Source: Minisyncoccota bacterium (GTDB lineage Bacteria > Patescibacteriota > Minisyncoccia > UBA6257 > MFKM01). From it: a stretch of DNA of 34,603 nucleotides. The notes beneath the pieces are model-generated. The model saw only the letters and a program-made list of their open reading frames with translations, was not told the origin of the DNA and did not search any database. Numbering within the stretch: the first letter of the stretch is position 1; every line of letters begins with the position of its first letter. Where the stretch lies: NCBI GenBank assembly GCA_036169835.1, contig JAVHOD010000052.1:1-34603 (forward strand), written 5' to 3'. The position numbers and the translations under genes are program-made. This document shows positions 1 to 24,846 of the stretch, in pieces.

Positions 1-186
1 GCCATTGATAAATTTAAAATATTCAAAGTTTTTTTGTTTGCCTTTCTCGATCAGAGTCATCATCCCGGCCGCCGTTTTCATAAGAAAATTTATCGCTAAG
101 TGGCCCACATTATGATAAGTCGGGGCGTATTGAGCGGCGGGATTGCCTAAACCGACAATAAGACGGTATTTATTTTTTTTATCCAT
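1..186 (-). CDS. pth: Peptidyl-tRNA hydrolase, N-terminal part (gene runs off window start)
   Basis: Reverse translation from ATG (rc of 184-186) reads MDKKNKYRLIVGLGNPAAQYAPTYHNVGHLAINFL..., matching the LIVGLGNPG..Y..T.HN.G Pth N-terminal signature. It is absent from the ORF track because there is no stop inside the window. Confidence 0.8.
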   Translation of the reverse strand, partial: MDKKNKYRLIVGLGNPAAQYAPTYHNVGHLAINFLMKTAAGMMTLIEKGKQKNFEYFKFING

Positions 187-203
187 AATTATTTAGATAA
201 GGG

Positions 204-390
204 CTTGCCCAGTTAACTCAACTCCGAATAAGTAAAAATTTATTGAGATAAATTTTTACTTGAATTGTGCTCCGCTAATCTCTTTCTATTATATTATTGG
301 TATGATCTACATAATATTCTCTATTTCTTTGAACTTAACAATATAAGTAAAGTATAGAAGAATATCATCGGAGTTGAGTTACTGGGCTTG
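204..390. repeat. Inverted-repeat-bounded intergenic element, copy 1 (179 bp core 208-386, flanked by CTTG/CTTG)
   Basis: cccagttaactcaactccga (208-227) is the near-perfect complement of tcggagttgagttactggg (368-386). CTTG lies at 204-207 and again at 387-390. An internal 13-bp hairpin spans 230-261. Confidence 0.75.
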
Positions 391-438
391 ATTTTCGGCT
401 TTTTAACATTATAATATAACAGATATTAATATACTATT

Positions 439-981
439 ATGCGGAAATTTTTTTGGTCATTCTTGGAGATTTTGGAAGTCGTAGCCATTTCCGTTTTTGC
501 CGTTTTTATTATCAGGACTTTTTTGTTTCAGCCCTTTTTGGTCAGCGGCGCCAGCATGGAGCCGACTTTTTCCAACGGGAATTATATTTTAGTTGATGAA
601 GTAAGCTACCGATTCCGCGAGCCCCAGCGGGGCGAAGTGATAGTTTTCGAACCTCCGGTCGGGGGCAGTTATTTCATTAAAAGGATTATCGGGTTGCCTA
701 ATGAAAAAGTGAAAATTCAAGACGGCGAAATTATTATTTTTGATCCAGGGGGCAATAAAATTTTGCTTAAAGAAAGCTATATTCCGGCTGATATCAAAAC
801 CTTCGGGGACTTAGAGGCGGTTTTGAAGCCGGACCAATATTTTGTTTTGGGCGATAACCGCAATTACAGTTTTGATTCCCGCGCCTGGGGCTTTTTAGCC
901 AAAGACAAAATTATCGGCTTGGTGAAATTGAGAATCTGGCCGATTACCTCCGTTATGGCCTTTGGAACGCCGAATTATTAA
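439..981 (+). CDS. lepB: Signal peptidase I
   Basis: 180 aa with an N-terminal TM helix. SGASMEPT Ser box and GDNRNYSFDSR box E are S26 family signatures. Confidence 0.9.
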   Translation: MRKFFWSFLEILEVVAISVFAVFIIRTFLFQPFLVSGASMEPTFSNGNYILVDEVSYRFREPQRGEVIVFEPPVGGSYFIKRIIGLPNEKVKIQDGEIIIFDPGGNKILLKESYIPADIKTFGDLEAVLKPDQYFVLGDNRNYSFDSRAWGFLAKDKIIGLVKLRIWPITSVMAFGTPNY

Positions 982-984
982 ATA

Positions 985-1148
985 TATGCCCAGTGACTCA
1001 ACTCCGATGGTCCATCTGAATTTTCGGAAGAAAATTCAGATGGACAGAAGTACTGGGCAAAGAGTAAGATTAATTAAATAAAACAAAATCATTAATTATC
1101 AACTTTGACATATCTGATAGAATGTCGGAGTTGAGTTAACTGGGTATG
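985..1148. repeat. Inverted-repeat-bounded intergenic element, copy 2 (156 bp core 989-1144, flanked by TATG/TATG)
   Basis: cccagtgactcaactccga (989-1007) pairs with tcggagttgagttaactggg (1125-1144). TATG lies at 985-988 and at 1145-1148; the latter contains the hisS ATG. A perfect 15-bp hairpin spans 1010-1045, and TGATAGAAT lies at 1115-1123. Confidence 0.8.
1115..1123 (+). promoter_or_regulatory. Extended -10-like box TGATAGAAT upstream of hisS, inside element copy 2
   Basis: TGnTAGAAT motif 22 nt upstream of the hisS ATG. The same TGATAGAAT occurs upstream of nrdD (rc of 9959-9967), and TAGAAT occurs upstream of the NYN gene. Confidence 0.4.
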
Positions 1149-2459
1149 GAAGGCGCTAAAAATAAAAAGATCAAAAAAAACAAACAAATTTTTCAGGCGC
1201 CCAAAGGGATGCCCGACATCCTTCCCAGGGATCAGGTTTGGTGGGAAAGAATTTTTGAAGTCGGGAAAGAAGTCAGTTCTCTATATGATTTTTCTTTCAT
1301 TGAAACTCCGATTTTAGAATCGGCGGGGCTTTTTGAAGCGTCATTGGGCGAAGCCAGTGATGTCATTGAAAAGCAGATGTATGTTTTTAACACTAAAGGC
1401 GATCAGCGTCTGGCTCTGCGGCCCGAAGGCACCACTCCGATTTGTCGGGCTTATTTGGAAAACCACATGGGCTATTACGCTCATCCCTTGAAGGTGTTCT
1501 ATCACGGGCCGATGCTCCGTTACGAGCAGCCCCAGGCGGGTCGCTACCGCCAGCATCATCAATGGGGATTTGAGATTATGGGGGATAATCATCCGGTTTA
1601 TGACGCCCAGATAATTTTTGCCATTCACCGTTTTTTGAATCTGTTAAAAATAAAAGGCATCAATTTTCGGATTAATACCATCGGTTGCCGGGTTTGCCGA
1701 CCCAATTACCGGAGAAAACTTTTGGAATATTATCAGCCTCTTAAAAAAGAACTTTGCGAGGATTGCCAGCGCCGGCTGGAGGTTAATCCATTGCGGTTGC
1801 TTGACTGTAAAAACGGAAATTGCCTGGCCTTAAGATCTTCGGCTCCGGTGATTCTTAACCACCTTTGTCAGAATTGCAATAATCATTTGCGGGGTGTTTT
1901 GGAATTCGTTGAAGATAATGATCTGGCTTATATTTCCGACCCTTTTTTGGTAAGGGGGTTGGATTATTACAATCGGACGGTTTTTGAGATAGACGTTCCT
2001 GAACTGAAAATGGCTTTGGCGGCCGGCGGCCGTTACGATTATCTTACGGAGATAATCGGAGGCCAAAGCGTGCCGGGCGTCGGCGGCTCAATCGGCCTTG
2101 AAAGAGTAATTGAGGTGATGAAGCAGCAGCAGATTGTTCCCGAATTAAAATCCAAGCCGCGAGTTTTTTTTATCGCGGTCGGGGACCAGGCGGAGAAATC
2201 GGGCTTGGTTTTGGTGGAAAATATGCGGCGGGCCGGCATTGCCGTCAGCGAAGCCCTGGGCCGAAAATCCCTTAAAGCGCAATTGAAAGCCGCCGACAAA
2301 AAAGGAGTTCCTTTGGTTTTAATTTTTGGCCAAAAAGAGGTTTTTGAAGAGACGATTATTCTCAGGGATATGAAATCCGGTGTTCAAGAAAATATGCTTT
2401 TAAGCAAATTAGTCGAAGAAATTAAAAAAAGATTACATCCGAATCATTCGACCAAATAG
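1146..2459 (+). CDS. hisS: Histidine--tRNA ligase
   Basis: 437 aa. Class II aaRS/HisRS motifs are present (APKGMPD, LRPEGT, GGRYD) plus a C-terminal anticodon-binding domain. Confidence 0.9.
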   Translation: MEGAKNKKIKKNKQIFQAPKGMPDILPRDQVWWERIFEVGKEVSSLYDFSFIETPILESAGLFEASLGEASDVIEKQMYVFNTKGDQRLALRPEGTTPICRAYLENHMGYYAHPLKVFYHGPMLRYEQPQAGRYRQHHQWGFEIMGDNHPVYDAQIIFAIHRFLNLLKIKGINFRINTIGCRVCRPNYRRKLLEYYQPLKKELCEDCQRRLEVNPLRLLDCKNGNCLALRSSAPVILNHLCQNCNNHLRGVLEFVEDNDLAYISDPFLVRGLDYYNRTVFEIDVPELKMALAAGGRYDYLTEIIGGQSVPGVGGSIGLERVIEVMKQQQIVPELKSKPRVFFIAVGDQAEKSGLVLVENMRRAGIAVSEALGRKSLKAQLKAADKKGVPLVLIFGQKEVFEETIILRDMKSGVQENMLLSKLVEEIKKRLHPNHSTK

Positions 2460-2469
2460 ATTAATTCGC

Positions 2470-2892
2470 ATGGATTGTTTATTTTGTAAAATAATAAAAA
2501 AAGAAATACCGGCTGAGATTATTTATGAAGACGAGAACGCTTTAGCTATTTTAGATATTAATCCCCGAGCCCCGGGTCACACGATGGTCCTCTCTAAAGT
2601 TCATAGCGAGACAATCCTGGATTTGCCGGAAAATGAAGTCGGGCCGCTTTTTTCAGCCGTCAAAAAAATTACCCGATTAATCCAAAAAAGCTTGAATCCC
2701 GAAGGGTTTACTATTGGAATCAATCACGGTAAAATAAGCGGCCAGGTCATTGACCATCTGCATATTCACATTATTCCCAGATTTAAAAATGACGAGGGGA
2801 GTTCAATTCACAGCGTGGTCAATAATCCGCCCAAAGAGTCGTTAAAAGAGATAAAGAATAAAATAAAATTACAAAGCGATTATGGAAATTAG
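2470..2892 (+). CDS. HIT-family (histidine triad) nucleotide hydrolase
   Basis: 140 aa with the histidine triad HLHIHIIP. Confidence 0.9.
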   Translation: MDCLFCKIIKKEIPAEIIYEDENALAILDINPRAPGHTMVLSKVHSETILDLPENEVGPLFSAVKKITRLIQKSLNPEGFTIGINHGKISGQVIDHLHIHIIPRFKNDEGSSIHSVVNNPPKESLKEIKNKIKLQSDYGN

Positions 2893-3091
2893 AAAAAAAG
2901 AAAAAGAATCGGTTGCCGGTCTCCTTTACCGCTTCAGTTTAAAGATGAAACAAAGCGGGATACTTCGCGAAGTTAAGAAGCGGCGTTTTTATCATCGGCC
3001 GCCTAATCGCCGCAAAACTCGGATCGCGGCTGTTTATCGCGAAGGCAAAAAGAAAGAGCTGGAGAAAGCCAAAAAATTAGGCGAATTATGA
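2882..3091 (+). CDS. rpsU: 30S ribosomal protein bS21
   Basis: 69 aa, very basic, S21-like core (LLYRFSLKMKQSGILREVKKRRFYHRPPNRRK). It overlaps the HIT stop by 11 nt and the ybeY start by 4 nt. Confidence 0.75.
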   Translation: MEIRKKEKESVAGLLYRFSLKMKQSGILREVKKRRFYHRPPNRRKTRIAAVYREGKKKELEKAKKLGEL

Positions 3092-3492
3092 ACGAAATTT
3101 CGGTTGTCAGTCTGAATAATAAATACCGATTTTTAGAGAAAAAAATAAGAAGGATAACCCACAAATTCCTTCAATTGCTGAAAAAAGAAAATTGTCATTT
3201 AGGGATTTTTTTAGTTACCAGCCGGAAAATGAAATTTTTAAATAAGAAATTCAGAAATAAAGACAAGACGGCCGAAATTCTTACTTTTATTGAACCGAAA
3301 AAATATCCCCATCCGGAATCCAAGTTTAAATTTCTTGGGGAAATTTATTTAAATCCCGATTGTATCGCGCCGGAAAATATTAGCCGTCTGGCAGCCCACG
3401 GCCTGCTTCATTTATTCGGTTTTTTTCACAAGAAAAAAAGTGATAGAATAAGAATGGAGGCTAAAGAATATTTTTTAATTTCCCATGTCTAA
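3088..3492 (+). CDS. ybeY: rRNA maturation endoribonuclease YbeY
   Basis: 134 aa with the zinc motif HGLLHLFGFFH (H-x3-H-x5-H). Confidence 0.85.
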   Translation: MNEISVVSLNNKYRFLEKKIRRITHKFLQLLKKENCHLGIFLVTSRKMKFLNKKFRNKDKTAEILTFIEPKKYPHPESKFKFLGEIYLNPDCIAPENISRLAAHGLLHLFGFFHKKKSDRIRMEAKEYFLISHV

Positions 3493-4708
3493 TATCATTA
3501 CCGGTCTTGATATCGGGTCAAGCAGCATCAAAGTCGTAGTTTCGGAAATCAAAAACAACGGCCGTTTTCTGGTTTTAGGAGCTTTCAAACGGCCTTCGGT
3601 CGGATTCAGAAAAGGGGTTTTATCCGATTTTGAAGACGCTACGGTTTCTTTGAGAAACATTATCAGTGATCTTAAGGGATTAAGCCCTAAAGCGCTTAAA
3701 AATGTTTATGTCAATGTTAATGGCGCCAATATTAAATCTTGTCTTTCAAAAGGCGTAGCCGGCGTGGCGCGGGCTGACAGCGAGATTCGCCGTGATGACG
3801 TTGAGAAGGCCATCCAAGCCTCCCGAGCCGTGAATTTGTCTTCAAATTACGTCGTGCTTCACAATATCACCCGCGAATTTTTCGTTGACGGCATCGGAGG
3901 GATTCAAGACCCTTTGGGGATGACTGGTACCAGGTTGGAAGTGAATAGCTTGGTGGTTGGGGCGTTTAGCCCCATAGTTAACGATCTGACCAAATGCCTG
4001 GAGCGGAACGGGATAACAACTGTCAGCGGCTTGATTTTCGGTCCTTTGGCGGCCAGTGAAGCGGTTTTATCAAAACAGCAAAAGGATTTGGGGGTTTTAG
4101 TGTTGGATATCGGGTTTGGCACTTCCAGTTTAGCCGTTTATGAAGAAAATAAAATTCTTAAAACTTTAAGTTTGCCGATAGGAGCCGGTAATATTACCAA
4201 CGACATTGCCGTTGGCTTGAGAATTCCGGTTGGAGCGGCGGAGAAAATAAAATTAAGTTATGGCTTCGCTTTTGCCAAAGAGACGCCGCGGCGCGAAGTT
4301 TTTAATTTACAGGAAATTGATAATTCATTAAAAGGCGAAATATCCAAACGTTTTCTTTCCGAAATTATTGAGGCGCGACTTGCCGAAATCTTTGAAATCA
4401 TAAATAATGAAATTAAGAGTTTGGACCCCAAGATCAATTTTCCGGCGGGCGTGGTTATCACCGGCGGGGGGGCTAAGTTGCCCGGAATAGTTGACCTGGC
4501 TAAGCAAGATTTAAAATTGCCGGTCCAGATTGGGCTTCCCGAGTTGACTAATTTTGATATCAAAGATTACGATTGTCAGGAGCTAATCAGCGATCCGGAA
4601 TTCGCCACGGCCGTAGGGTTGGCTATCTATGGGCTTAATCATCAGGAAGGAAACTCGCGCTCCTCAATTTTTAATTTGAAAAAATTTTTGCAGAATTTGA
4701 TACCATAA
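3485..4708 (+). CDS. ftsA: Cell division protein FtsA
   Basis: 407 aa actin-like ATPase. It has ITGLDIGSSSIKVVV phosphate-1 and VITGGGAKLPG motifs, and sits immediately upstream of ftsZ. Confidence 0.9.
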   Translation: MSNIITGLDIGSSSIKVVVSEIKNNGRFLVLGAFKRPSVGFRKGVLSDFEDATVSLRNIISDLKGLSPKALKNVYVNVNGANIKSCLSKGVAGVARADSEIRRDDVEKAIQASRAVNLSSNYVVLHNITREFFVDGIGGIQDPLGMTGTRLEVNSLVVGAFSPIVNDLTKCLERNGITTVSGLIFGPLAASEAVLSKQQKDLGVLVLDIGFGTSSLAVYEENKILKTLSLPIGAGNITNDIAVGLRIPVGAAEKIKLSYGFAFAKETPRREVFNLQEIDNSLKGEISKRFLSEIIEARLAEIFEIINNEIKSLDPKINFPAGVVITGGGAKLPGIVDLAKQDLKLPVQIGLPELTNFDIKDYDCQELISDPEFATAVGLAIYGLNHQEGNSRSSIFNLKKFLQNLIP

Positions 4709-4711
4709 GAG

Positions 4712-4956
4712 TATGCCCAGTAACTCAACTCCGATGGTATTCTTCTGTGATAATGCGTTGTAGGATAAAAAGATGAAGTTTATTTTATTGGTTATATCTA
4801 AAGAACCTAACAAAACAAACAGAAGAATACATCGGGACAAAAATCATTAAACCAAGATATATGAAAAATAAAAAACAAAACAAGTTAGTCGAATTAATAT
4901 CAATCAACTCCAAGATGAGAGATTTTTGTCTTTCGGAGTTGAGTTAACTGGGTATG
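4712..4956. repeat. Inverted-repeat-bounded intergenic element, copy 3 (237 bp core 4716-4952, flanked by TATG/TATG)
   Basis: cccagtaactcaactccga (4716-4734) pairs with tcggagttgagttaactggg (4933-4952). TATG lies at 4712-4715 and at 4953-4956; the latter contains the ftsZ ATG. A nested 17-bp stem pairs 4731-4748 with 4819-4835. Confidence 0.8.
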
Positions 4957-6087
4957 ACAAAAAATAAAAAATCCAAAGCTTTTAATCTGGCTCATATTAA
5001 AGTGGTGGGCGTGGGCGGCGCCGGCGGCCATATTATTACCCGAATGGCCCAGAAAGAAGGCATTAAAAACGTGGAATTTATTGCCATTAATACCGATGCC
5101 CAGGATTTGGAATACACTCAAGCTCGCAAGAAAATTTATATCGGCAAGACTTTAACAAGAGGGATGGGAGCCGGAATGAATCCGGAATTAGGCAGGCAGG
5201 CGGCCGAGGAAAATCGTTCCGAAATCAGCGAAGCGCTTCAAGGAGCCGATATTGTTTTTATTACGGCGGGTTTGGGCGGGGGGACCGGCTCTTTGGGGGC
5301 AGGCGTGGTGGCTGACATCGCCCGCGAGATCGGCGCTTTGACCATCGCTGTCGTCACCAAGCCGTTTTCTTTTGAAGGTGCCCAGCGGATGCGAATCGCC
5401 CAGGAGGCCTTAGCTCAAATTAAAACCAAAGTTGACACTTTGGTCGTTATTCCCAATGACCGGATTTTCAATATCATCAATAAAGATACCTCGCTTATTA
5501 AGGCCTTTGAATTTGTTGACGACATTTTAAAAAATGCGGTTCAAGCCATTACCGAACTGATTGTTTCTCCGGGGCTTATTAACTTGGATTTTGCCGATAT
5601 TAAAGCCGTAATGAAAGACGCCGGTTCGGCGATTATCGGCATCGGGGTGACCGCGGGAGCGGAGAGGGCGGCTAACGCGGTAAATATGGCTGTCAATTCA
5701 CCCTTATTGGAAAACTCAATTGATGGCGCTAAAGGCGTTCTTTTCAGTATTTCCGGCGGCCGGGACCTTAAAATGAGCGAAATCCAAATTATCGCCAAAA
5801 GTATTTCTGATTCCGTTGATCCCGGGGCTAAAGTTATATTCGGCGCTTATTACGACCGCCGGCTTCCCGCGAAACACATCAAAGTGACGATTATCGCCAC
5901 CGGATTCAGTTTCGGCAATACGCCTCAAATTATAAAGTCGGGTTCTTTGTTCACCCCTTTATACCAAGACGAGGCTGCGGAAATCGCCGACTTAGACAAT
6001 AAAAGAGAGAAACCGGTTGAAGAAAAAAATAAAGTTGAAGAAAAAACAGAAATTCCGTCTTTCCTGCGCCGCAAAAAACATCGGTAA
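4954..6087 (+). CDS. ftsZ: Cell division protein FtsZ
   Basis: 377 aa with VGVGGAGG and the GGGTGS tubulin signature. The C-terminal peptide is IPSFLRRK. Confidence 0.95.
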   Translation: MTKNKKSKAFNLAHIKVVGVGGAGGHIITRMAQKEGIKNVEFIAINTDAQDLEYTQARKKIYIGKTLTRGMGAGMNPELGRQAAEENRSEISEALQGADIVFITAGLGGGTGSLGAGVVADIAREIGALTIAVVTKPFSFEGAQRMRIAQEALAQIKTKVDTLVVIPNDRIFNIINKDTSLIKAFEFVDDILKNAVQAITELIVSPGLINLDFADIKAVMKDAGSAIIGIGVTAGAERAANAVNMAVNSPLLENSIDGAKGVLFSISGGRDLKMSEIQIIAKSISDSVDPGAKVIFGAYYDRRLPAKHIKVTIIATGFSFGNTPQIIKSGSLFTPLYQDEAAEIADLDNKREKPVEEKNKVEEKTEIPSFLRRKKHR

Positions 6088-7088: not shown

Positions 7089-7817
7089 TTAAAGATTTCT
7101 TAACTCGGTAGGCAGATATTTATTGCATTTTTTTTGAATGGTTTCTAACTGCTTTTGTCCGAAGGGTTTGTATTTTTTATATTTCGGGTTGATTGTCTTT
7201 TCGGGTTTGAATTGCTGAAGAAAATATTTTTTAGCGCCTTTTAATTGTTTGGCTATATCTACAATATCTTTTAGTTGGTGTAGTTTCGGTATGATTGTGG
7301 TTCTGAATTCATAATTAATTCCGGATTTTTTGATTATCTCAATGCTTTTTTTAATTTTTTCTAAATTAACTTTCGTCCCCGCCACTTCGTCATATTTTGA
7401 AAATTGGGAATTGGAAATTGGAAATTGCGCCAAAGGCGCCTTTATGTCCATAGCCACATAATCTATGAGTTTTTCATCAATTAAGTTTTTTAACATTTCG
7501 GGATTTGAGCCGTTGGTGTCAAGCTTCACCGCATATCCAAGTTTTTTTATTTTTTTTATAAAATCCGGTAGGTTTTTATTTATGGTAGGTTCTCCGCCGC
7601 AGATTGCCACGCCATCCAATAGTCCTTTTCTTTGTTTTAAAAAATCAAAAAAATCTTTTTCGGAAATTTTAGCGTGTTTGTTAATATCTTCGGCTAAAAC
7701 CAATTCGGGATTATAGCACCAGGGACAGGAAAAATTACAGCCAACTAAAAAAACCGTGGCCGCGATTTTGCCCGGATAATCAATAAGGGTAAGTTTTTGG
7801 AGACCGCCTATCAGCAC
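7089..7817 (-). CDS. nrdG: Anaerobic ribonucleoside-triphosphate reductase activating protein (radical SAM)
   Basis: 242 aa with the CNFSCPWCYN radical-SAM cluster motif and GGEPT. It follows nrdD with a 1-nt gap. Confidence 0.85.
   Translation of the reverse strand: MLIGGLQKLTLIDYPGKIAATVFLVGCNFSCPWCYNPELVLAEDINKHAKISEKDFFDFLKQRKGLLDGVAICGGEPTINKNLPDFIKKIKKLGYAVKLDTNGSNPEMLKNLIDEKLIDYVAMDIKAPLAQFPISNSQFSKYDEVAGTKVNLEKIKKSIEIIKKSGINYEFRTTIIPKLHQLKDIVDIAKQLKGAKKYFLQQFKPEKTINPKYKKYKPFGQKQLETIQKKCNKYLPTELRNL
7399..7439. repeat. Heptamer tandem repeat plus GC hairpin inside the nrdG CDS
   Basis: On the coding strand, aatttcc aatttcc aattccc aatttt encodes QFPISNSQFS. It is preceded by the hairpin gcgcc-aaa-ggcgc (7427-7439), which encodes APLA. 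Confidence 0.7.
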
Positions 7818-14445: not shown

Positions 14446-16338
14446 TTATTTTTGGAGCGTTTGAGTGAAGACGCGCATTATTGAGCCTGATAAAGATTCC
14501 GGATTAATAGAACCGCTGGGCGGAGGAGTGGTATTTTCGGTTGGCGGCGGAGTTTGAGTTGGCGGGGGAGGAGTATTACCTGTTGGCGGTTGCTGATTTG
14601 CCGGCGGCATCATTCCCTCCGGCGGATTTGTCATTCCCTGCTGGGGTTGTTGAGGTTGTTGTCCTTGTGGTGGCATATTTTGTTGAGTCGGCGGCTGTTG
14701 GTTGCCGGTTGGCGGCTGCTGTTGTGTTCGCATTTGTCCTTGTTGTCTAGGCTGTCCGGGTTGATTAAGTTGACCGGGCTGATTTGGTTGACTTGGTTGA
14801 AAATTTTTACATTCCTCAGGATTAGAAGTGCAGTATTTTTGGCATTCTTCCGGCCCCTTGCAACCGCCTGGACCAGCCTGCTGTGGCATTTGTTGGCCGC
14901 CTGGATTTACAGTCCCTGATCCAGGTTGAAAATTTTTACATTCCTCAGGGGTTTTACACCCGCCCAGCTCTCCTTGTCCGCCAGCCGACATCATACCTCT
15001 GGCGTTTGATCCGCCTTGGTCTTGAGACCCGCTTTGCCCCTGGCCTTGGGTTCCGCCCTGGCCTTGTTGATTTTGTTGATTTGACTGACCAGGTTGATCT
15101 TGGCCTTGCTGATTTTGACCCGGCCTTCTTTCTTGCGTTCCAAATTTTTGAAAACACTGATTGATAGAATCACCAGATTGTCGCCCAATCACAGATCCAG
15201 TTTTCATTTTTTCAACAACATCAGCGCCTAAAGAAGACGATATACAATCCAAAACTTCAGGCGGTATTGAAGAAAAAGAGTCTTTCATTTTTTGCTGGCC
15301 CTCTTCCATCCTTTTTAGATCAGCCTCGGGAATCATTCCATTTTCTTTGCCAAACTGAAAACAAGTTTCTTGATTGTCGGGATTATTGCAAAAAGTATCG
15401 CATTCGTCTTTGTTTTTACAGCCGCCCGGCCCCTTGCCTCCGGTCTTACGAACCATAACCGCGTCTTCTTTGCTCATAAACCCGGCCGCTTCAGCGAAGC
15501 TGGTGCATTCTTCAAAATGAGCGTCTTGCGAGCAATAAGTATTGCATTCCTCTTTGCCTTTACAGGCCGGCGGTTTTATCCCTTGTTTTATAGCCGCCAG
15601 CATTTTTTGGGAGTCGGCTTTTTCTTGTTCGTTCATAAAACCGGCTTCAATGGCGAAATTTGTACAAACTTCCATATTATTAGGTTCGCCGCAGTATTGG
15701 TCGCACGCTTCTTTGCCTTTACAGGGCGGCGGTTTCACGCCTCTTTTTAGAGCCGCCAGCATTTTTTGAGAATCTTCAAGTTCTTTGCCCTGGATAAAAC
15801 CCGCTTCCACGCCGAAAGCCACGCATTTCTCCATATTATTCGGGTCCTCGCAATAAGAATCGCATTCTTTTTTATTTTTACAGGGCGGCGGTTTCACGCC
15901 TCTGGCGATGGCCGCTTGAACTTGTTTGGCTTCCGCCAAATCTTTCGCCGACATTAAATTATTTTTTTCCGCGAAAGAAACGCAATCATTGATGTTGTTG
16001 ATATCGTCGCAATATGTTTCGCAGGCGTCTTTGCCGGCGCAGCCGCCGGGCCCCTTGCTCCCTGACGCCACGAAATTTTTGGCCGTATTGACTTCATCTT
16101 TCGACATCAGGTTGTTTTTTTCGGCGAAATTAAGACAAGCAGTGTTATTGTCCGATTTGTCGCAATAGGTCTTGCAGGATGCCGCGTCTTGGCAATTGCC
16201 AAGCTCCTTTACCGGATATTGGAGATTTGCCGCGCCGGCTGTTTCTTGAGCCAAAGCCACTTTATTAAATAAACCAACCGAGCCGATTATTGCTATCGCG
16301 GAGATGATAATAAAACTTATGAGATATTTTGTTTTCAT
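14446..16338 (-). CDS. Secreted cysteine-repeat protein with a Q/P/G-rich C-terminal half
   Basis: The start is placed at ATG 16338 (MKTKYLISFIIISAIAIIGSVG..., a signal/anchor). It has six about 45-aa modules with C-x5-C-x3-C-x9-C spacing followed by F(A/G)(E/I/V).. helices, plus two partial modules, then long Q/P/G/N low-complexity sequence. Confidence 0.8.
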   Translation of the reverse strand: MKTKYLISFIIISAIAIIGSVGLFNKVALAQETAGAANLQYPVKELGNCQDAASCKTYCDKSDNNTACLNFAEKNNLMSKDEVNTAKNFVASGSKGPGGCAGKDACETYCDDINNINDCVSFAEKNNLMSAKDLAEAKQVQAAIARGVKPPPCKNKKECDSYCEDPNNMEKCVAFGVEAGFIQGKELEDSQKMLAALKRGVKPPPCKGKEACDQYCGEPNNMEVCTNFAIEAGFMNEQEKADSQKMLAAIKQGIKPPACKGKEECNTYCSQDAHFEECTSFAEAAGFMSKEDAVMVRKTGGKGPGGCKNKDECDTFCNNPDNQETCFQFGKENGMIPEADLKRMEEGQQKMKDSFSSIPPEVLDCISSSLGADVVEKMKTGSVIGRQSGDSINQCFQKFGTQERRPGQNQQGQDQPGQSNQQNQQGQGGTQGQGQSGSQDQGGSNARGMMSAGGQGELGGCKTPEECKNFQPGSGTVNPGGQQMPQQAGPGGCKGPEECQKYCTSNPEECKNFQPSQPNQPGQLNQPGQPRQQGQMRTQQQPPTGNQQPPTQQNMPPQGQQPQQPQQGMTNPPEGMMPPANQQPPTGNTPPPPTQTPPPTENTTPPPSGSINPESLSGSIMRVFTQTLQK

Positions 16339-16339
16339 A

Positions 16340-16639
16340 TTATTCAAAAGGATTAGTTTTAACATTTTTAAAGGGGTTAGCTTTGTCGGCCGGATTGACG
16401 TCGGGTTTGCTTTCTAGGGGGTTTGCCCCTACCGAGGGCAGGACGCCTTTGGTGGCGCTTTCGGTTATAGCTCCCGCCGCTTCGCTGGCATTTTCCAATG
16501 CTTGGGTAAAGGCCTGGGACTCGGTTGACTTAGGCGTTGTTTTGGACTTTTTCCAATTACTCCAGTAGAAATAACCGCCGACTCCCAGCCCAATTAATAA
16601 AACGACCGCTATTATTAATAAAAGAGTTTTTTTATTCAT
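16340..16639 (-). CDS. Small membrane-anchored hypothetical protein
   Basis: 99 aa with an N-terminal TM helix (LLLIIAVVLLIGLGVGGYFYW). Its stop lies 1 nt upstream of the Cys-repeat gene start. Confidence 0.6.
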   Translation of the reverse strand: MNKKTLLLIIAVVLLIGLGVGGYFYWSNWKKSKTTPKSTESQAFTQALENASEAAGAITESATKGVLPSVGANPLESKPDVNPADKANPFKNVKTNPFE

Positions 16640-24703: not shown

Positions 24704-24846
24704 GCCAATGTGATTAAAATTTTCAATTACCAATTCTCAATTTTCAATCAATGACTAAATTTTCAATTTCCAAACGTTTGAAAATCAGTTCATTGAAAAT
24801 TTATTAGAAATTAGAAATTGGAAATTAGAAATTCAGACCAAGCCCT
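24704..24846. repeat. AT-rich repeat-laden imperfect palindrome between the adaptor and ATPase genes
   Basis: There are three direct aattttcaat copies on the left. The centre is the palindrome caaacgtttg. On the right are cattgaaaat and four (a/g)gaaatt units (tagaaattagaaattggaaattagaaatt). Confidence 0.7.

What the first reader, a model, noticed from the sequence alone, without database searches (positions are those of the whole stretch)
985..1148. Inverted-repeat-bounded 156-bp element sits exactly between the lepB stop and the hisS start, flanked by a TATG duplication that contains the start codon
- **Termini.** The whole lepB-hisS spacer is bounded by cccagtgactcaactccga (989-1007) and its near-complement tcggagttgagttaactggg (1125-1144).
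- **Flanking duplication.** Immediately outside lie TATG (985-988) and TATG (1145-1148). The second supplies the hisS ATG.
- **Reconstructed empty site.** Deleting the element plus one TATG gives TAA-ata-tATG. That is a 4-nt stop/start junction, like the tight or overlapping junctions elsewhere in this operon.
- **Interpretation.** This is the footprint of a non-autonomous TIR element with a 4-bp target-site duplication that landed on a start codon without destroying it.
- **Internal layout.** The element has a perfect 15-bp hairpin (1010-1045), then an A-rich spacer, then TGATAGAAT (1115-1123) abutting the right terminus. It could act as a portable hairpin-plus-outward-promoter cassette.
- **No partner in view.** No transposase is present in the window.
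Basis: partly seen in the sequence, partly recalled or inferred. Interest (0 to 1): 0.8.

Follow-up and report, generated by a model that had tools for sequence, protein, structure and literature searches.

The report
Mini transposon parked on start codons
The 156-bp lepB-hisS spacer is a recently inserted miniature transposon from an apparently undescribed family in Candidate Phyla Radiation bacteria; the family lands almost only on gene start codons, and its 315-bp full-length relatives encode only a tiny GIY-YIG nuclease.

Summary

- **Insertion shown.** The closest syntenic relative (about 92% nt identity) has a precise empty site, taaatTTATGgaagg. It lacks the element and one TATG.
- **Other copies.** The window holds two more copies, at 208-386 and 4716-4952. 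Public Parcubacteria genomes and metagenomes hold at least 85 distinct copies.
- **Duplications.** 78 of 84 copies have exact 3-5 bp target duplications, mostly TATG. Rare variants such as CAAG, CAGG and TAAA match on both sides.
- **Start-codon placement.** 75 of 81 copies place their TTAACTGGG end directly against the ATG of a long ORF, always in the same orientation. This covers 62 different genes, many of them ribosomal-protein genes.
- **Full-length members.** The 313-318 bp members carry one intact ORF, an 87-88 aa Slx1-like GIY-YIG nuclease (Pfam E=1e-17, dN/dS about 0.1). In most subfamilies it is in frame with the captured host ATG. Diverged homologues carry diverged termini whose two arms co-vary.
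- **No DDE transposase** with these termini was found.
- **Inferred, not shown.** The nuclease mobilises the family. The element takes over host initiation signals. wB carries an outward promoter.

I found no prior description.

The parts
985..988 (.). Left copy of the target-site duplication (TATG), 3 nt after the lepB stop codon
   Evidence: The empty site in L143 has a single TATG.
989..1007 (+). Left terminus of element wB (19 nt, CCCAGTGACTCAACTCCGA)
   Evidence: It never varies across 22 aligned B-type copies apart from position 995.
1010..1045 (+). Subterminal hairpin: 16-bp stem with a GGAA loop
   Evidence: Fold. Across 22 copies, 6 of 16 pairs change on both sides and 97.5% of cells stay paired.
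1046..1095 (+). A-rich interior conserved in the B-type subfamily. It includes an internal GTACTGGG (1050-1057) that resembles the right end.
   Evidence: Alignment A2.
1096..1123 (+). Outward-facing sigma-70-like promoter candidate: TTATCA (1096-1101), 16-nt spacer, TAGAAT (1118-1123), with TG at 1115-1116
   Evidence: Consensus scan. The position is conserved in B-type copies, where the final AAT is invariant. Function was not tested.
1125..1144 (+). Right terminus of wB (20 nt, TCGGAGTTGAGTTAACTGGG)
   Evidence: Invariant in 21 of 22 aligned copies.
1145..1148 (.). Right copy of the duplication (TATG). Its ATG (1146-1148) is the hisS start codon.
   Evidence: In L143 the hisS gene is called from the same ATG in the empty site.
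204..390 (-). Sister element wA (208-386, reverse orientation) with CTTG duplications at 204-207 and 387-390. It is a decayed, internally deleted GIY-YIG form.
   Evidence: Empty site gggCTTGattttcgg in L143. Homology to the full-length element. tblastn finds a remnant of the nuclease with stops, E=8e-6.
4712..4956 (+). Sister element wC (4716-4952) with TATG duplications at 4712-4715 and 4953-4956. The ATG at 4954 starts ftsZ. It is a decayed GIY-YIG form.
   Evidence: Empty ftsA-ftsZ junctions in L144 and L147. Alignment to full-length elements.

Best explanation
**Shown.**
- wB (989-1144) is a non-autonomous copy (MITE) of a mobile-element family of Parcubacteria (Jorgensenbacteria, Wolfebacteria and relatives).
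- It inserted into the TATG at the 4-nt lepB-stop/hisS-start junction and duplicated those 4 bp. The left copy stays behind lepB, and the right copy supplies the intact hisS ATG.
- The family is defined by asymmetric termini of about 20 nt: CCCAGT-AACTCAACTCCGA on the left and TCGGAGTTGAGTTAACTGGG on the right. It makes 3-5 bp target duplications.
- It has a nearly exclusive, orientation-fixed position, with its right end abutting a gene's start codon.
- Its longest members (313-318 bp) consist of the two termini around one intact 87-88 aa ORF. That ORF is a minimal Slx1/UPF0213-type GIY-YIG nuclease under purifying selection.
- wA and wC in this window are deletion or decay products of that form.
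- wB keeps only the termini and has a different interior: a hairpin plus an A-rich, promoter-like segment.

**Inferred.**
1. The GIY-YIG protein, supplied in trans, recognises the termini and mobilises both long and short forms. I put this at about 0.5.
2. Landing on an ATG lets the element take over the host gene's initiation signals. These are either a leaderless promoter with its 5' AUG, or a stop/start coupling site. The nuclease ORF is in frame with the left ATG copy in most subfamilies.
3. The host gene is then re-initiated from the duplicated ATG about 35 nt after the element's stop codon. This would be tolerated because many Parcubacteria lack the anti-Shine-Dalgarno motif, so no ribosome-binding site is displaced.
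4. For wB, hisS is expressed either by read-through from lepB or from the element's own outward promoter candidate at 1096-1123.
For: **Insertion.**
- L143 (about 92% nt identity; HisS 97% aa identity) has precise empty sites for wA and wB.
- L144 and L147 have empty ftsA-ftsZ junctions.

**Family and duplications.**
- There are 85 distinct copies. Duplications are exact in 78 of 84: 4 bp in 68, 5 bp in 8, 3 bp in 2.
- Variable flanks match on both sides: CATG, AATG, GATG, CGATG, CAAG, CAGG, CCTG, TAAA.

**Start-codon placement.**
- 81 of 85 copies have an ATG in the right flank. 75 of those 81 open an ORF of at least 60 codons or run off the contig. They cover 62 distinct genes.
- 27 of 28 ORF-less B-type copies also sit at gene starts.
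- A rough null from this window has 15 TATG start codons against 21 intergenic TATG/CATA sites. Observing 51 of 55 distinct sites at starts gives P of about 2e-15.

**Insertions at overlapping junctions keep both genes.**
- At the rpsU/ybeY ATGA overlap, a 5-bp TATGA duplication is seen in L054 and L026. The window and L143 are empty there.

**Nuclease.**
- Pfam GIY-YIG E=1e-17.
- Best PDB matches are the UPF0213 proteins 1ywl and 1zg2, then SLX1.
- dN/dS is 0.06-0.2 while dS is 0.3-2.2 between copies that share near-identical termini.

**Arms co-vary with the protein.** The subfamilies differ in the inner part of the termini, and both arms change together:
- L149: ATTCAACTTTAA / TTAAAGTTGAAT.
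- L156: ACAAAACTTCAC / GTGAAGTTATTGT.
- L166: ACACTACTTCAAA / TTTGAAGTAGAGT.
- L167: CCCCGTAGGAAAT / ATTTCCTACGGGG.
- Each has (T)ATG duplications and a gene starting at the right ATG.

**In-frame capture.** It is seen in the main family, L149, L156 (which has no ATG of its own) and L166. Gene callers report 94-101 aa products.

**Host context.**
- Target upstream regions are G-poor, with no Shine-Dalgarno motif.
- TANNNT ends at -7 in 14 of 73 sites, against 0-5 at neighbouring positions.
- The anti-SD motif was detected in only 48% of Parcubacteria (PMC9297842).

**Window copies.** wA and wC are homologous to the full-length form.
Against: - No GIY-YIG enzyme is known to carry out TIR/TSD transposition (my knowledge). 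An 87-aa domain with no DNA-binding module is a slim candidate for recognising 20-bp ends and a target.
- Intact copies were seen at only about 8 distinct sites, and they are well diverged from each other.
- One intact protein sequence found on many contigs turned out to be the same argS|smpB locus in many samples. It did not mark recent jumps.
- Purifying selection on the ORF could reflect a host-level role rather than a transposition role.
- In-frame capture is not universal. L028 and L167 are out of frame.
- wB's interior shows no similarity to the nuclease-bearing form, so only the termini link them.
A longer element with a conventional transposase and slightly different ends could have been missed.
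- The start-codon bias could owe something to selection. The null model is crude.
- No transcript data exist, so promoter use, leaderless starts and re-initiation are untested.
Confidence: 0.78

Rival explanations
1. wB is an ordinary MITE mobilised by a conventional transposase that has not been found, for example an IS1380/piggyBac-like or IS5/IS701-like DDE enzyme that makes 4-5 bp duplications. On this view the GIY-YIG ORF in the long forms is a passenger or an independent selfish gene nested between the ends.
For: - Duplications of 3-5 bp and 20-bp TIRs are the classic signature of DDE transposition (established knowledge).
- Ends beginning CCC...GGG with a 4-bp duplication recall piggyBac/IS1380. 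This is my recollection, not a test.
- Intact nuclease copies are few and old.
- Scans were exact-match and capped.
Against: - Across more than 140 loci that carry the termini, no terminus pair lies more than 318 bp apart, and no transposase was seen.
- In five diverged subfamilies the unit is always terminus-nuclease-terminus, and the termini diverge along with the protein.
- The ORF start sits at the inner edge of the left terminus, in frame with the captured ATG.
- A fixed orientation relative to an asymmetric target is unusual for two-fold symmetric DDE transpososomes (my knowledge).
Confidence: 0.25
2. The element was once mobile but is now a host-retained regulatory cassette. It would act as an internal promoter and 5' leader for hisS, or as a long double-stranded RNA stem that is processed (for example by RNase III) to uncouple hisS from lepB. 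On this view the termini are conserved for that role rather than for transposition.
For: - There is a promoter-like TTATCA-16-TAGAAT with TG next to the right end, and its position is conserved in B-type copies.
- A 20-25 bp perfect stem would form in read-through RNA.
- The hairpin is kept by compensatory changes.
- Copies sit in front of essential genes, including inside ribosomal-protein operons, so they cannot be strongly polar.
Against: - The closest relative lacks the element at hisS and at pth-lepB, so it is not needed.
- Occupancy of the five junctions in this operon differs among close relatives.
- The terminus sequence itself is invariant and shows no covariation within the family. 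That fits protein recognition better than a bare RNA stem.
- This reading does not explain the duplications or the nuclease-bearing relatives. It is compatible with the best explanation as a secondary effect.
Confidence: 0.15
3. The family spreads by homing rather than transposition. The nuclease would cut empty TATG start sites, and the break would be repaired by copying an occupied allele from another cell or strain. The flanking repeats would then be microhomology rather than true target duplications.
For: - GIY-YIG enzymes are classic homing endonucleases (PMC1564403).
- Presence and absence at orthologous sites is patchy among close relatives.
- The same start codon holds different element types in different genomes, in 8 of about 16 shared sites.
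Against: - There are 62 unrelated insertion sites, which share only (T)ATG.
- Rare non-ATG duplications (CAAG, CAGG, CCTG, TAAA) match on both sides. Copying from a TATG-flanked donor would not produce that.
- The protein lacks the DNA-binding modules of homing enzymes.
- Homing elements do not carry TIRs.
Confidence: 0.08
4. The spacer is an ancient conserved cis-regulatory RNA of hisS, such as a leader, T-box or attenuator, and not an insertion.
For: The fold is strong, and the spacer lies directly upstream of an aminoacyl-tRNA synthetase gene.
Against: - Rfam gave no match at gathering threshold, and nothing relevant at E up to 5.
- It is absent from hisS in L143, L144, L145, L147 and L026.
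- The same element sits upstream of 62 unrelated genes.
Confidence: 0.01

Closest known systems
Bacterial MITEs, especially Neisseria Correia repeat-enclosed elements
   Same: - Size of 100-250 bp, TIRs of about 20-26 bp and short target duplications.
- Many copies between and within operons, co-transcribed with neighbouring genes.
- Some Correia copies supply promoters, and their long RNA stems are RNase III substrates (my knowledge).
- Modular subtypes exist. Here they are L1/L2/L3 crossed with R1/R2/R3.
   Different: - No sequence relation.
- Correia elements duplicate TA and are not tied to start codons or to one orientation.
- Here 75 of 81 copies abut a gene's ATG, and long relatives encode a nuclease.
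piggyBac / IS1380-type DDE transposons
   Same: 4-bp (IS1380: 4-5 bp) duplications, ends that begin CCC and finish GGG, and clean empty sites. The comparison rests on my recollection of those families.
   Different: - Those elements encode DDE/DDD transposases of more than 400 aa, and piggyBac's TTAA target is palindromic.
- No such gene was found here.
- The target here is asymmetric and the orientation is fixed.
Free-standing and intron-encoded GIY-YIG homing endonuclease genes (T4 Seg/Mob, I-TevI)
   Same: GIY-YIG catalytic domain. They are small selfish ORFs wedged between conserved genes, with patchy presence among close relatives.
   Different: - Homing enzymes carry DNA-binding modules and recognise only the uninterrupted target, not their own ends (PMC1564403).
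- They have no TIRs or duplications, and each has a single cognate site.
- NCBIfam's group I intron endonuclease model scores 21.5 bits against a cut-off of 56.
Stand-alone bacterial Slx1-family / UPF0213 GIY-YIG proteins (EF2693 1ywl, BH0048 1zg2)
   Same: A minimal 85-100 aa GIY-YIG domain with no auxiliary domain. They are the best matches among solved structures, E of about 3e-6. PMC1564403 classes them as Slx1 family.
   Different: They are treated as vertically inherited genes of unknown function. In the literature I could search they are not described as bounded by TIRs and duplications or as sitting on start codons.
IS200/IS605 elements and REP/RAYT systems
   Same: Very small elements with subterminal hairpins that matter for mobility. 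They insert in one orientation next to a specific 4-5 nt target (my knowledge).
   Different: They have no TIRs and no target duplications, and they use a HUH tyrosine transposase. Here there are TIRs, duplications and a GIY-YIG ORF.

Membership tests
MITE (non-autonomous TIR transposon) | Terminal inverted repeats | tested here: met
   The 19/20-nt arms at 989-1007 and 1125-1144 are the same in all copies.
MITE (non-autonomous TIR transposon) | Target-site duplication flanking each copy | tested here: met
   78 of 84 are exact (3-5 bp). Rare variants match on both sides.
MITE (non-autonomous TIR transposon) | Small size with no coding capacity for a mobility enzyme | tested here: met
   wB is 156 bp. 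The reading frame from the left ATG is about 31 codons by my own translation, and 3-49 codons across the short forms. No protein similarity was found.
MITE (non-autonomous TIR transposon) | Multiple dispersed copies and presence/absence polymorphism | tested here: met
   There are 3 copies in the window and 85 distinct copies at 62 genes. Empty sites are seen in L143, L144 and L147.
MITE (non-autonomous TIR transposon) | Shares its ends with an autonomous element that encodes the transposase | tested here: inconclusive
   It shares its ends with 313-318 bp elements whose only ORF is a GIY-YIG nuclease. Whether that protein is the transposase is not shown.
DDE insertion sequences with 4-5 bp duplications (IS1380, IS5, IS701, ISH3; piggyBac) | DDE transposase gene bounded by the same TIRs | tested here: not met
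   No terminus pair lies more than 318 bp apart in more than 140 loci. No transposase domain was found in 30 window ORFs. The scans were capped, so absence is not proven.
GIY-YIG homing endonuclease genes | GIY-YIG catalytic domain | tested here: met
   PF01541 E=1e-17 for the long relatives. wB itself has none.
GIY-YIG homing endonuclease genes | Extra DNA-binding domain and a single cognate homing site, with no TIRs or duplications | tested here: not met
   The protein is 87-88 aa with the catalytic domain only. The family has TIRs, duplications and 62 unrelated sites.
Slx1 / UPF0213 stand-alone GIY-YIG proteins (for the partner ORF) | Minimal GIY-YIG domain of about 90 aa, closest to 1ywl/1zg2 | tested here: met
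   Sequence search of solved structures gave 1ywl at 2.4e-6, 1zg2 at 3.5e-6 and SLX1 at 0.034.
Slx1 / UPF0213 stand-alone GIY-YIG proteins (for the partner ORF) | Structure-specific cleavage of branched or hairpin DNA | not testable with these tools
   This needs biochemistry.
Known cis-regulatory RNA families (T-box, leaders, riboswitches) | Match to a curated covariance model and conservation at orthologous positions | tested here: not met
   No Rfam match. Orthologous spacers are empty.
IS200/IS605 or REP/RAYT | No TIRs and no duplications; HUH transposase | tested here: not met
   TIRs and duplications are present. No HUH gene was seen in the window ORFs scanned.

The most novel reading that the evidence does not exclude
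The 313-318 bp members are autonomous transposons, which to my knowledge would be the smallest known. Their only protein, an 87-aa Slx1-like GIY-YIG nuclease, would act as the transposase. It would recognise the 20-bp hairpin-forming ends and insert specifically at translation or transcription start points (T)ATG, so that the element captures the host gene's promoter and start codon while handing the gene a duplicate ATG. wB would be one of its MITEs. This would add a new enzyme class to TIR/TSD transposition and a new target logic, start-codon capture. It would be confined so far to Shine-Dalgarno-poor CPR bacteria.
Probability: 0.4. Interest if true: 0.95.

Novelty: new variant of a known kind. 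Interest (0 to 1): 0.85.

Why it matters
- **A new target logic.** Transposons that hit a functional landmark with base-pair precision are rare and have become useful tools. None is known to target start codons.
- **Tolerated in essential genes.** The same tiny element sits on the ATG of at least 62 different, mostly essential genes, including genes inside ribosomal-protein operons, and it disables none of them.
- **What that implies for the hosts.** Expression in these Shine-Dalgarno-poor, partly leaderless bacteria must tolerate 140-320 bp of structured DNA directly in front of the start codon. The element may live by borrowing the host's initiation signals.
- **A possible new transposase class.** If the 87-aa GIY-YIG protein is the mobility enzyme, this would be a new class of transposase. 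It would also answer the question raised in 2006 (PMC1564403) of whether stand-alone Slx1-like GIY-YIG genes can be molecular parasites.
- **Annotation.**
  - Spacers of this kind in CPR genomes are insertions, not regulatory leaders.
  - The '94-aa GIY-YIG proteins' start at a duplicated host ATG.
  - Contigs in these metagenomes often break at these repeats.

Tried and rejected
- **Rfam and tRNA scans.** Rfam at gathering threshold over the whole window, and at E up to 5 over 1-5200, gave nothing relevant. ARAGORN found no tRNA or tmRNA.
- **Viral contigs.** A scan with the terminus pattern gave 0 hits.
- **Search for an autonomous copy.** I paired every + terminus with the next - terminus up to 3 kb apart in all loci. 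The maximum distance was 302 nt core to core.
- **Solo termini.** They were mostly at contig ends or were chance hits in GC-rich, non-CPR contigs. The one internal solo terminus (L033) has a VanY-like gene beside it and no transposase.
- **Window Pfam scan.** 30 ORFs were scanned and none has a transposase domain.
- **Recent jumps of the intact element.** I used the last context look-up on an intact nuclease sequence present on 44 contigs. All 10 places were the same argS|smpB locus in different samples, so this gave no evidence of recent jumps.
- **One homologue** (P0218) was not on record.
- **Intrinsic terminator role for the hairpin.** Rejected: no T-run follows the stem on either strand.
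- **Shine-Dalgarno role for GGAG in the right terminus.** Considered unlikely. It lies 17-20 nt from the ATG, and the hosts' start regions are G-poor.
- **Literature.** Six searches found no description of TIR/TSD elements carrying Slx1-like GIY-YIG genes, or of start-codon-specific MITEs. The library lacks most subscription journals.
Full report
**1. The observation**

- The lepB stop is at 979-981 and TATG is at 985-988.
- The left terminus is at 989-1007 and the right terminus is at 1125-1144.
- TATG is at 1145-1148. Its ATG opens a 437-aa ORF that Pfam identifies as histidyl-tRNA synthetase. The upstream ORF is an S26 signal peptidase.

The hairpin at 1010-1045 has 16 pairs, not 15.

The termini are far beyond chance.
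- The 20-mer has 3 matches against 0.00 expected.
- The 12-nt core has 6 matches, three inverted pairs, against 0.09 expected.

The same termini therefore bound two further spacers in the window.
- wA (208-386) lies between pth and lepB in reverse orientation, flanked by CTTG/CTTG.
- wC (4716-4952) lies between ftsA and ftsZ, flanked by TATG/TATG. Its second ATG starts ftsZ.

All three spacers fold far better than shuffles, with z of -8.5, -7.6 and -5.9. Nothing matches Rfam, and there are no tRNAs.

**2. It is an insertion**

HisS homologues led to syntenic contigs.

The closest is L143 (GCA_030693325.1; about 92% nt identity, HisS 97%). It reads gggCTTGattttcgg between pth and lepB, and taaatTTATGgaagg between lepB and hisS. 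That is exactly the window sequence minus each element and one copy of the 4-mer.

L144 and L147 have empty ftsA-ftsZ junctions (taaaaTATGgca). More distant relatives have the same unoccupied sequence at the pth-lepB site. The empty state is therefore ancestral and not an excision footprint.

Occupancy differs at the five junctions of this one operon. A dash means that junction is not covered in that contig.

| Contig | pth\|lepB | lepB\|hisS | rpsU\|ybeY | ybeY\|ftsA | ftsA\|ftsZ |
|---|---|---|---|---|---|
| Window | occupied | occupied | empty | empty | occupied |
| L143 | empty | empty | empty | - | - |
| L054 | - | occupied | occupied | occupied | - |
| L026 | - | - | occupied | occupied | occupied |
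| L144 | empty | empty | empty | empty | empty |
| L145, L147 | empty | empty | empty | empty | empty |

For L144, L145 and L147 the rpsU|ybeY and ybeY|ftsA cells (and, for L145, ftsA|ftsZ) rest on the short gene spacings rather than on the junction sequence.

**3. The family**

Exact-pattern scans found paired termini in several genome bins.
- Candidatus Jorgensenbacteria (6 loci).
- Wolfebacteria.
- Parcubacteria and Patescibacteria bins.

After removing identical sequences, 85 copies of 135-318 bp remain.

Flanking duplications:

| Duplication | Copies |
|---|---|
| Exact, any length | 78 of 84 |
| 4 bp | 68 |
| 5 bp | 8 |
| 3 bp | 2 |
| TATG | 54 |
| TATGA | 6 |
| CATG | 5 |
| AATG | 4 |
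| ATG | 2 |
| CGATG | 2 |
| GATG, TAAA, CAGG, CCTG, CAAG | 1 each |

The six imperfect pairs differ at a single base.

Rare flanks match on both sides, so these are true target duplications and not part of the element.

The two ends are not equivalent. The left arm reads GTAAC and the right arm reads GTTAAC, and this one-base asymmetry is kept throughout the family.

**4. Start-codon placement**

I oriented every copy by that asymmetry.
- 81 of 85 have an ATG within the right flank.
- 75 of those 81 open an ORF of at least 60 codons or run off the contig.
- They fall in front of 62 different genes.

By N-terminal sequence, which is my reading and not a tool result, the downstream genes include these:
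- Ribosomal-protein genes: rplB, rplW, rplX, rplO, rplK, rpsH, rpmC.
- Translation and transcription factors: nusG, infB, prfB, greA, smpB.
- Replication and repair: ssb, dnaG, ruvC.
- Aminoacyl-tRNA synthetase: ileS.
- By Pfam in this window: hisS and ftsZ.

The search pattern contained no flanking sequence, so this placement is not built in.

No copy has the left end facing a gene start.

ORF-less B-type copies show the same placement, 27 of 28.

As a rough null, this window has 15 TATG start codons and 21 intergenic TATG/CATA sites. Seeing 51 of 55 distinct TATG-flanked sites at gene starts has P of about 2e-15 under that model. The model is crude, and selection surely contributes. Even so, an insertion that separates a gene from everything upstream should if anything be less tolerated than one elsewhere in a spacer.

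At overlapping junctions the duplication preserves both genes.
- In the rpsU/ybeY ATGA overlap, a 5-bp TATGA duplication leaves TGA for rpsU and ATG for ybeY.
- At ybeY|ftsA, the element's CCCAGTAA supplies a new in-frame stop for ybeY two codons on. I read this.

**5. The host context explains the tolerance**

The 12 nt upstream of targeted ATGs contain 4-10% G at -12 to -6 and no Shine-Dalgarno signal.

A -10-like TANNNT ends exactly at -7 in 14 of 73 sites, against 0-5 at neighbouring positions. That is the geometry of leaderless mRNAs that start at the A of the ATG. The remaining sites are stop/start junctions inside operons.

A published survey detected the anti-SD motif in only 48% of Parcubacteria 16S genes (PMC9297842). 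An element placed directly before the ATG therefore displaces no ribosome-binding site.

**6. The partner**

The eight longest copies (313-318 bp, at four different genes) carry an intact 87-88 aa ORF. Its ATG is the CTCCGATGG at the inner edge of the left terminus.
- It matches Pfam GIY-YIG at E=1e-17.
- Its best solved relatives are the UPF0213 proteins 1ywl and 1zg2, then SLX1. Dunin-Horkawicz et al. class these as minimal bacterial Slx1-family nucleases (PMC1564403).
- Between copies, dN/dS is 0.06-0.2 while dS reaches 0.3-2.2. The 20-nt termini of those same copies are identical or differ by one base. Both the ORF and the ends are therefore under purifying selection.

In most copies the left-flank ATG is in frame with the ORF through the terminus (MPSNSTP-MVFF...). 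That is why gene callers report 94-aa proteins.

Alignment shows wA and wC are derivatives of this form.
- wA keeps the first 140 nt or so and the last 12 nt. It has a clean deletion between an internal inverted repeat, GGCAAAAATTT / AAATTTTTGCC.
- tblastn recovers a stop-ridden N-terminal half of the nuclease in wA (E=8e-6), and a weaker trace in wC.

wB shares only the termini.

**7. Diverged relatives**

Homologues of the nuclease at 62-77% identity sit in the same architecture but with different termini. The two arms have changed together.

| Locus | Left flank and terminus | Right terminus and flank | Gene at the right ATG |
|---|---|---|---|
| L149 | TATG\|CCCAGTAATTCAACTTTAA | TTAAAGTTGAATTAACTGGG\|TATG | Phage_holin_4_2 family gene |
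| L156 | TATG\|CCCAGTAACAAAACTTCAC | GTGAAGTTATTGTTACTGGG\|TATG | T2SS-type ATPase (element lies after dnaA) |
| L166 | ATG\|CCCAGTAACACTACTTCAAA | TTTGAAGTAGAGTTAACTGGG\|ATG | ileS |
| L167 | TATG\|CCCCGTAGGAAAT | ATTTCCTACGGGG\|TATG | sigma-70/HARE-HTH domain gene |

In L156 the ORF has no ATG of its own and can only start at the captured one.

Two more distant homologues depart from the pattern.
- L171 splits an ORF6N gene.
- L158 has TAA/TAA flanks.

The start-codon habit therefore belongs to a clade and is not universal.

The joint divergence of the ends and the protein is the main argument that they are a cognate pair. It does not prove catalysis of transposition.

**8. What wB itself looks like**

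Twenty-two B-type copies align well.
- **Termini.** They never vary, which fits sequence-specific recognition.
- **Subterminal hairpin.** 6 of 16 pairs change on both sides and 97.5% of cells stay paired. No shuffle reaches these values. The structure is therefore selected, in DNA or in RNA.
- **Interior.** It holds a strongly conserved A-rich block ending in TTATCA-16-T(A/G)AAAT immediately before the right terminus. In the window this is 1096-1123, with a TG extension.
- **Predicted transcript.** A start about 7 nt downstream would give hisS a leader of about 18 nt lying wholly inside the right terminus.

No T-run follows the hairpin, so it is not an intrinsic terminator.

The interior of wB is 85% identical to a copy at another gene (L029). 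It is only 78% identical to the copy at the same hisS site in L054, which ranks 16th of 21. L143 is empty and lies closer to the window than L054 does. Together these points favour independent insertions at the same start codon, although conversion between copies is not excluded.

Different element types occupy the same start codon in 8 of about 16 sites seen in more than one genome. Left and right modules occur in several combinations, so recombination among copies is common.

**9. Mechanism: shown and inferred**

Shown:
- Insertion with a 3-5 bp duplication.
- Fixed orientation and start-codon position.
- Intact host ORFs.
- Selection on the ends, the hairpin and the nuclease ORF.

Inferred:
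- The nuclease mobilises the family.
- The element borrows the host's initiation site, and the host gene re-initiates at the duplicate ATG.
- wB also drives hisS from its own promoter.

How an 87-aa nuclease would make a 4-nt staggered cut and join DNA is unknown. Slx1-type enzymes cut branched DNA near the branch point. These elements can extrude a 20-bp stem with inner hairpins, which is a lead and not a result.

**10. Novelty**

Six full-text searches found no description of such elements. Two nearby remarks exist.
- GIY-YIG ORFs occur in non-intron insertions of CPR rRNA genes (PMC11270868).
- The 2006 question of whether other GIY-YIG families are molecular parasites (PMC1564403).

wB is a new MITE family member in kind. 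Its family's target logic and putative enzyme are not matched by any family I know.

Noticed in passing
window 204-390: Second copy (wA, 208-386, reverse orientation) between pth and lepB. Its CTTG duplication overlaps the TTGATT -35 hexamer (388-393) of the best promoter-like site for lepB, so the hexamer is regenerated. The copy holds a stop-ridden N-terminal half of the GIY-YIG ORF and a clean deletion between an internal inverted repeat.
   Followed up: yes
window 4712-4956: Third copy (wC, 237 bp) exactly between the ftsA stop and the ftsZ ATG. It is a decayed form of the nuclease-bearing element. Relatives L144 and L147 have a 3-7 nt ftsA-ftsZ spacer instead.
   Followed up: yes
L054 7334-7492 and L026 2220-2375; empty site at window 3085-3092: Insertion into the 4-nt ATGA overlap of rpsU and ybeY with a 5-bp TATGA duplication, which keeps both the stop and the start codon. 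Six of the eight 5-bp duplications are TATGA.
   Followed up: yes
L054 7894-8032 versus L026 1584-1811; empty site at window 3482-3487: The same ftsA start codon (CATG) is occupied by a 139-bp B-type element in one genome and by a 235-bp nuclease-derived element in another. This happens at 8 of about 16 sites seen in more than one genome. It points to repeated insertion or to swapping of interiors between copies.
   Followed up: partly
All family copies: Interiors are mosaics of three left modules and three right modules in at least five combinations (L1R1, L2R1, L2R2, L3R2, L3R3). This suggests frequent recombination among copies.
   Followed up: partly
window 1050-1057: B-type interiors contain GTACTGGG followed by TAAAGG, which resembles a right end plus flank. 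The B type may be an older short element that captured about 75 nt of host promoter DNA behind a new right end.
   Followed up: no
window gene starts, e.g. 29127 (-), 31348 (-), 33426 (-), 6163 (+): Many genes have a TATAAT-like box 6-7 nt before the ATG and no Shine-Dalgarno sequence. This suggests that leaderless mRNAs are common in this organism.
   Followed up: partly
L171 1009-1845 and L158 1455-1760: More distant homologues of the nuclease sit differently. One splits an ORF6N-domain gene, with only CCCCGT/ACGGGG ends. The other has CCCAGTG/CACGGGG ends with TAA/TAA flanks after a long ORF. Other clades may therefore use other targets.
   Followed up: partly
L033 5946-5964: A solo left terminus about 40 nt upstream of the groES start, with no right partner within 1.3 kb. 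It is probably a truncated relic.
   Followed up: partly
window 14446-16365 (-), DNA repeats at 15374-16058: A 639-aa predicted secreted protein with about 53-aa Cys-rich modules (C..C..YC) encoded by 159-nt repeats, plus a Q/P-rich tail. It has no Pfam match.
   Followed up: no
window 7386-7435 and 24718-24842: GGAAATT-type short repeats occur in inverted orientation 17 kb apart (83% complementary over 41 nt).
   Followed up: no
Metagenome loci L035, L040-L042, L047, L048, L058, L060, L098, L100 and others: Many contigs end inside a terminus, so this repeat family breaks assemblies of these genomes.
   Followed up: no
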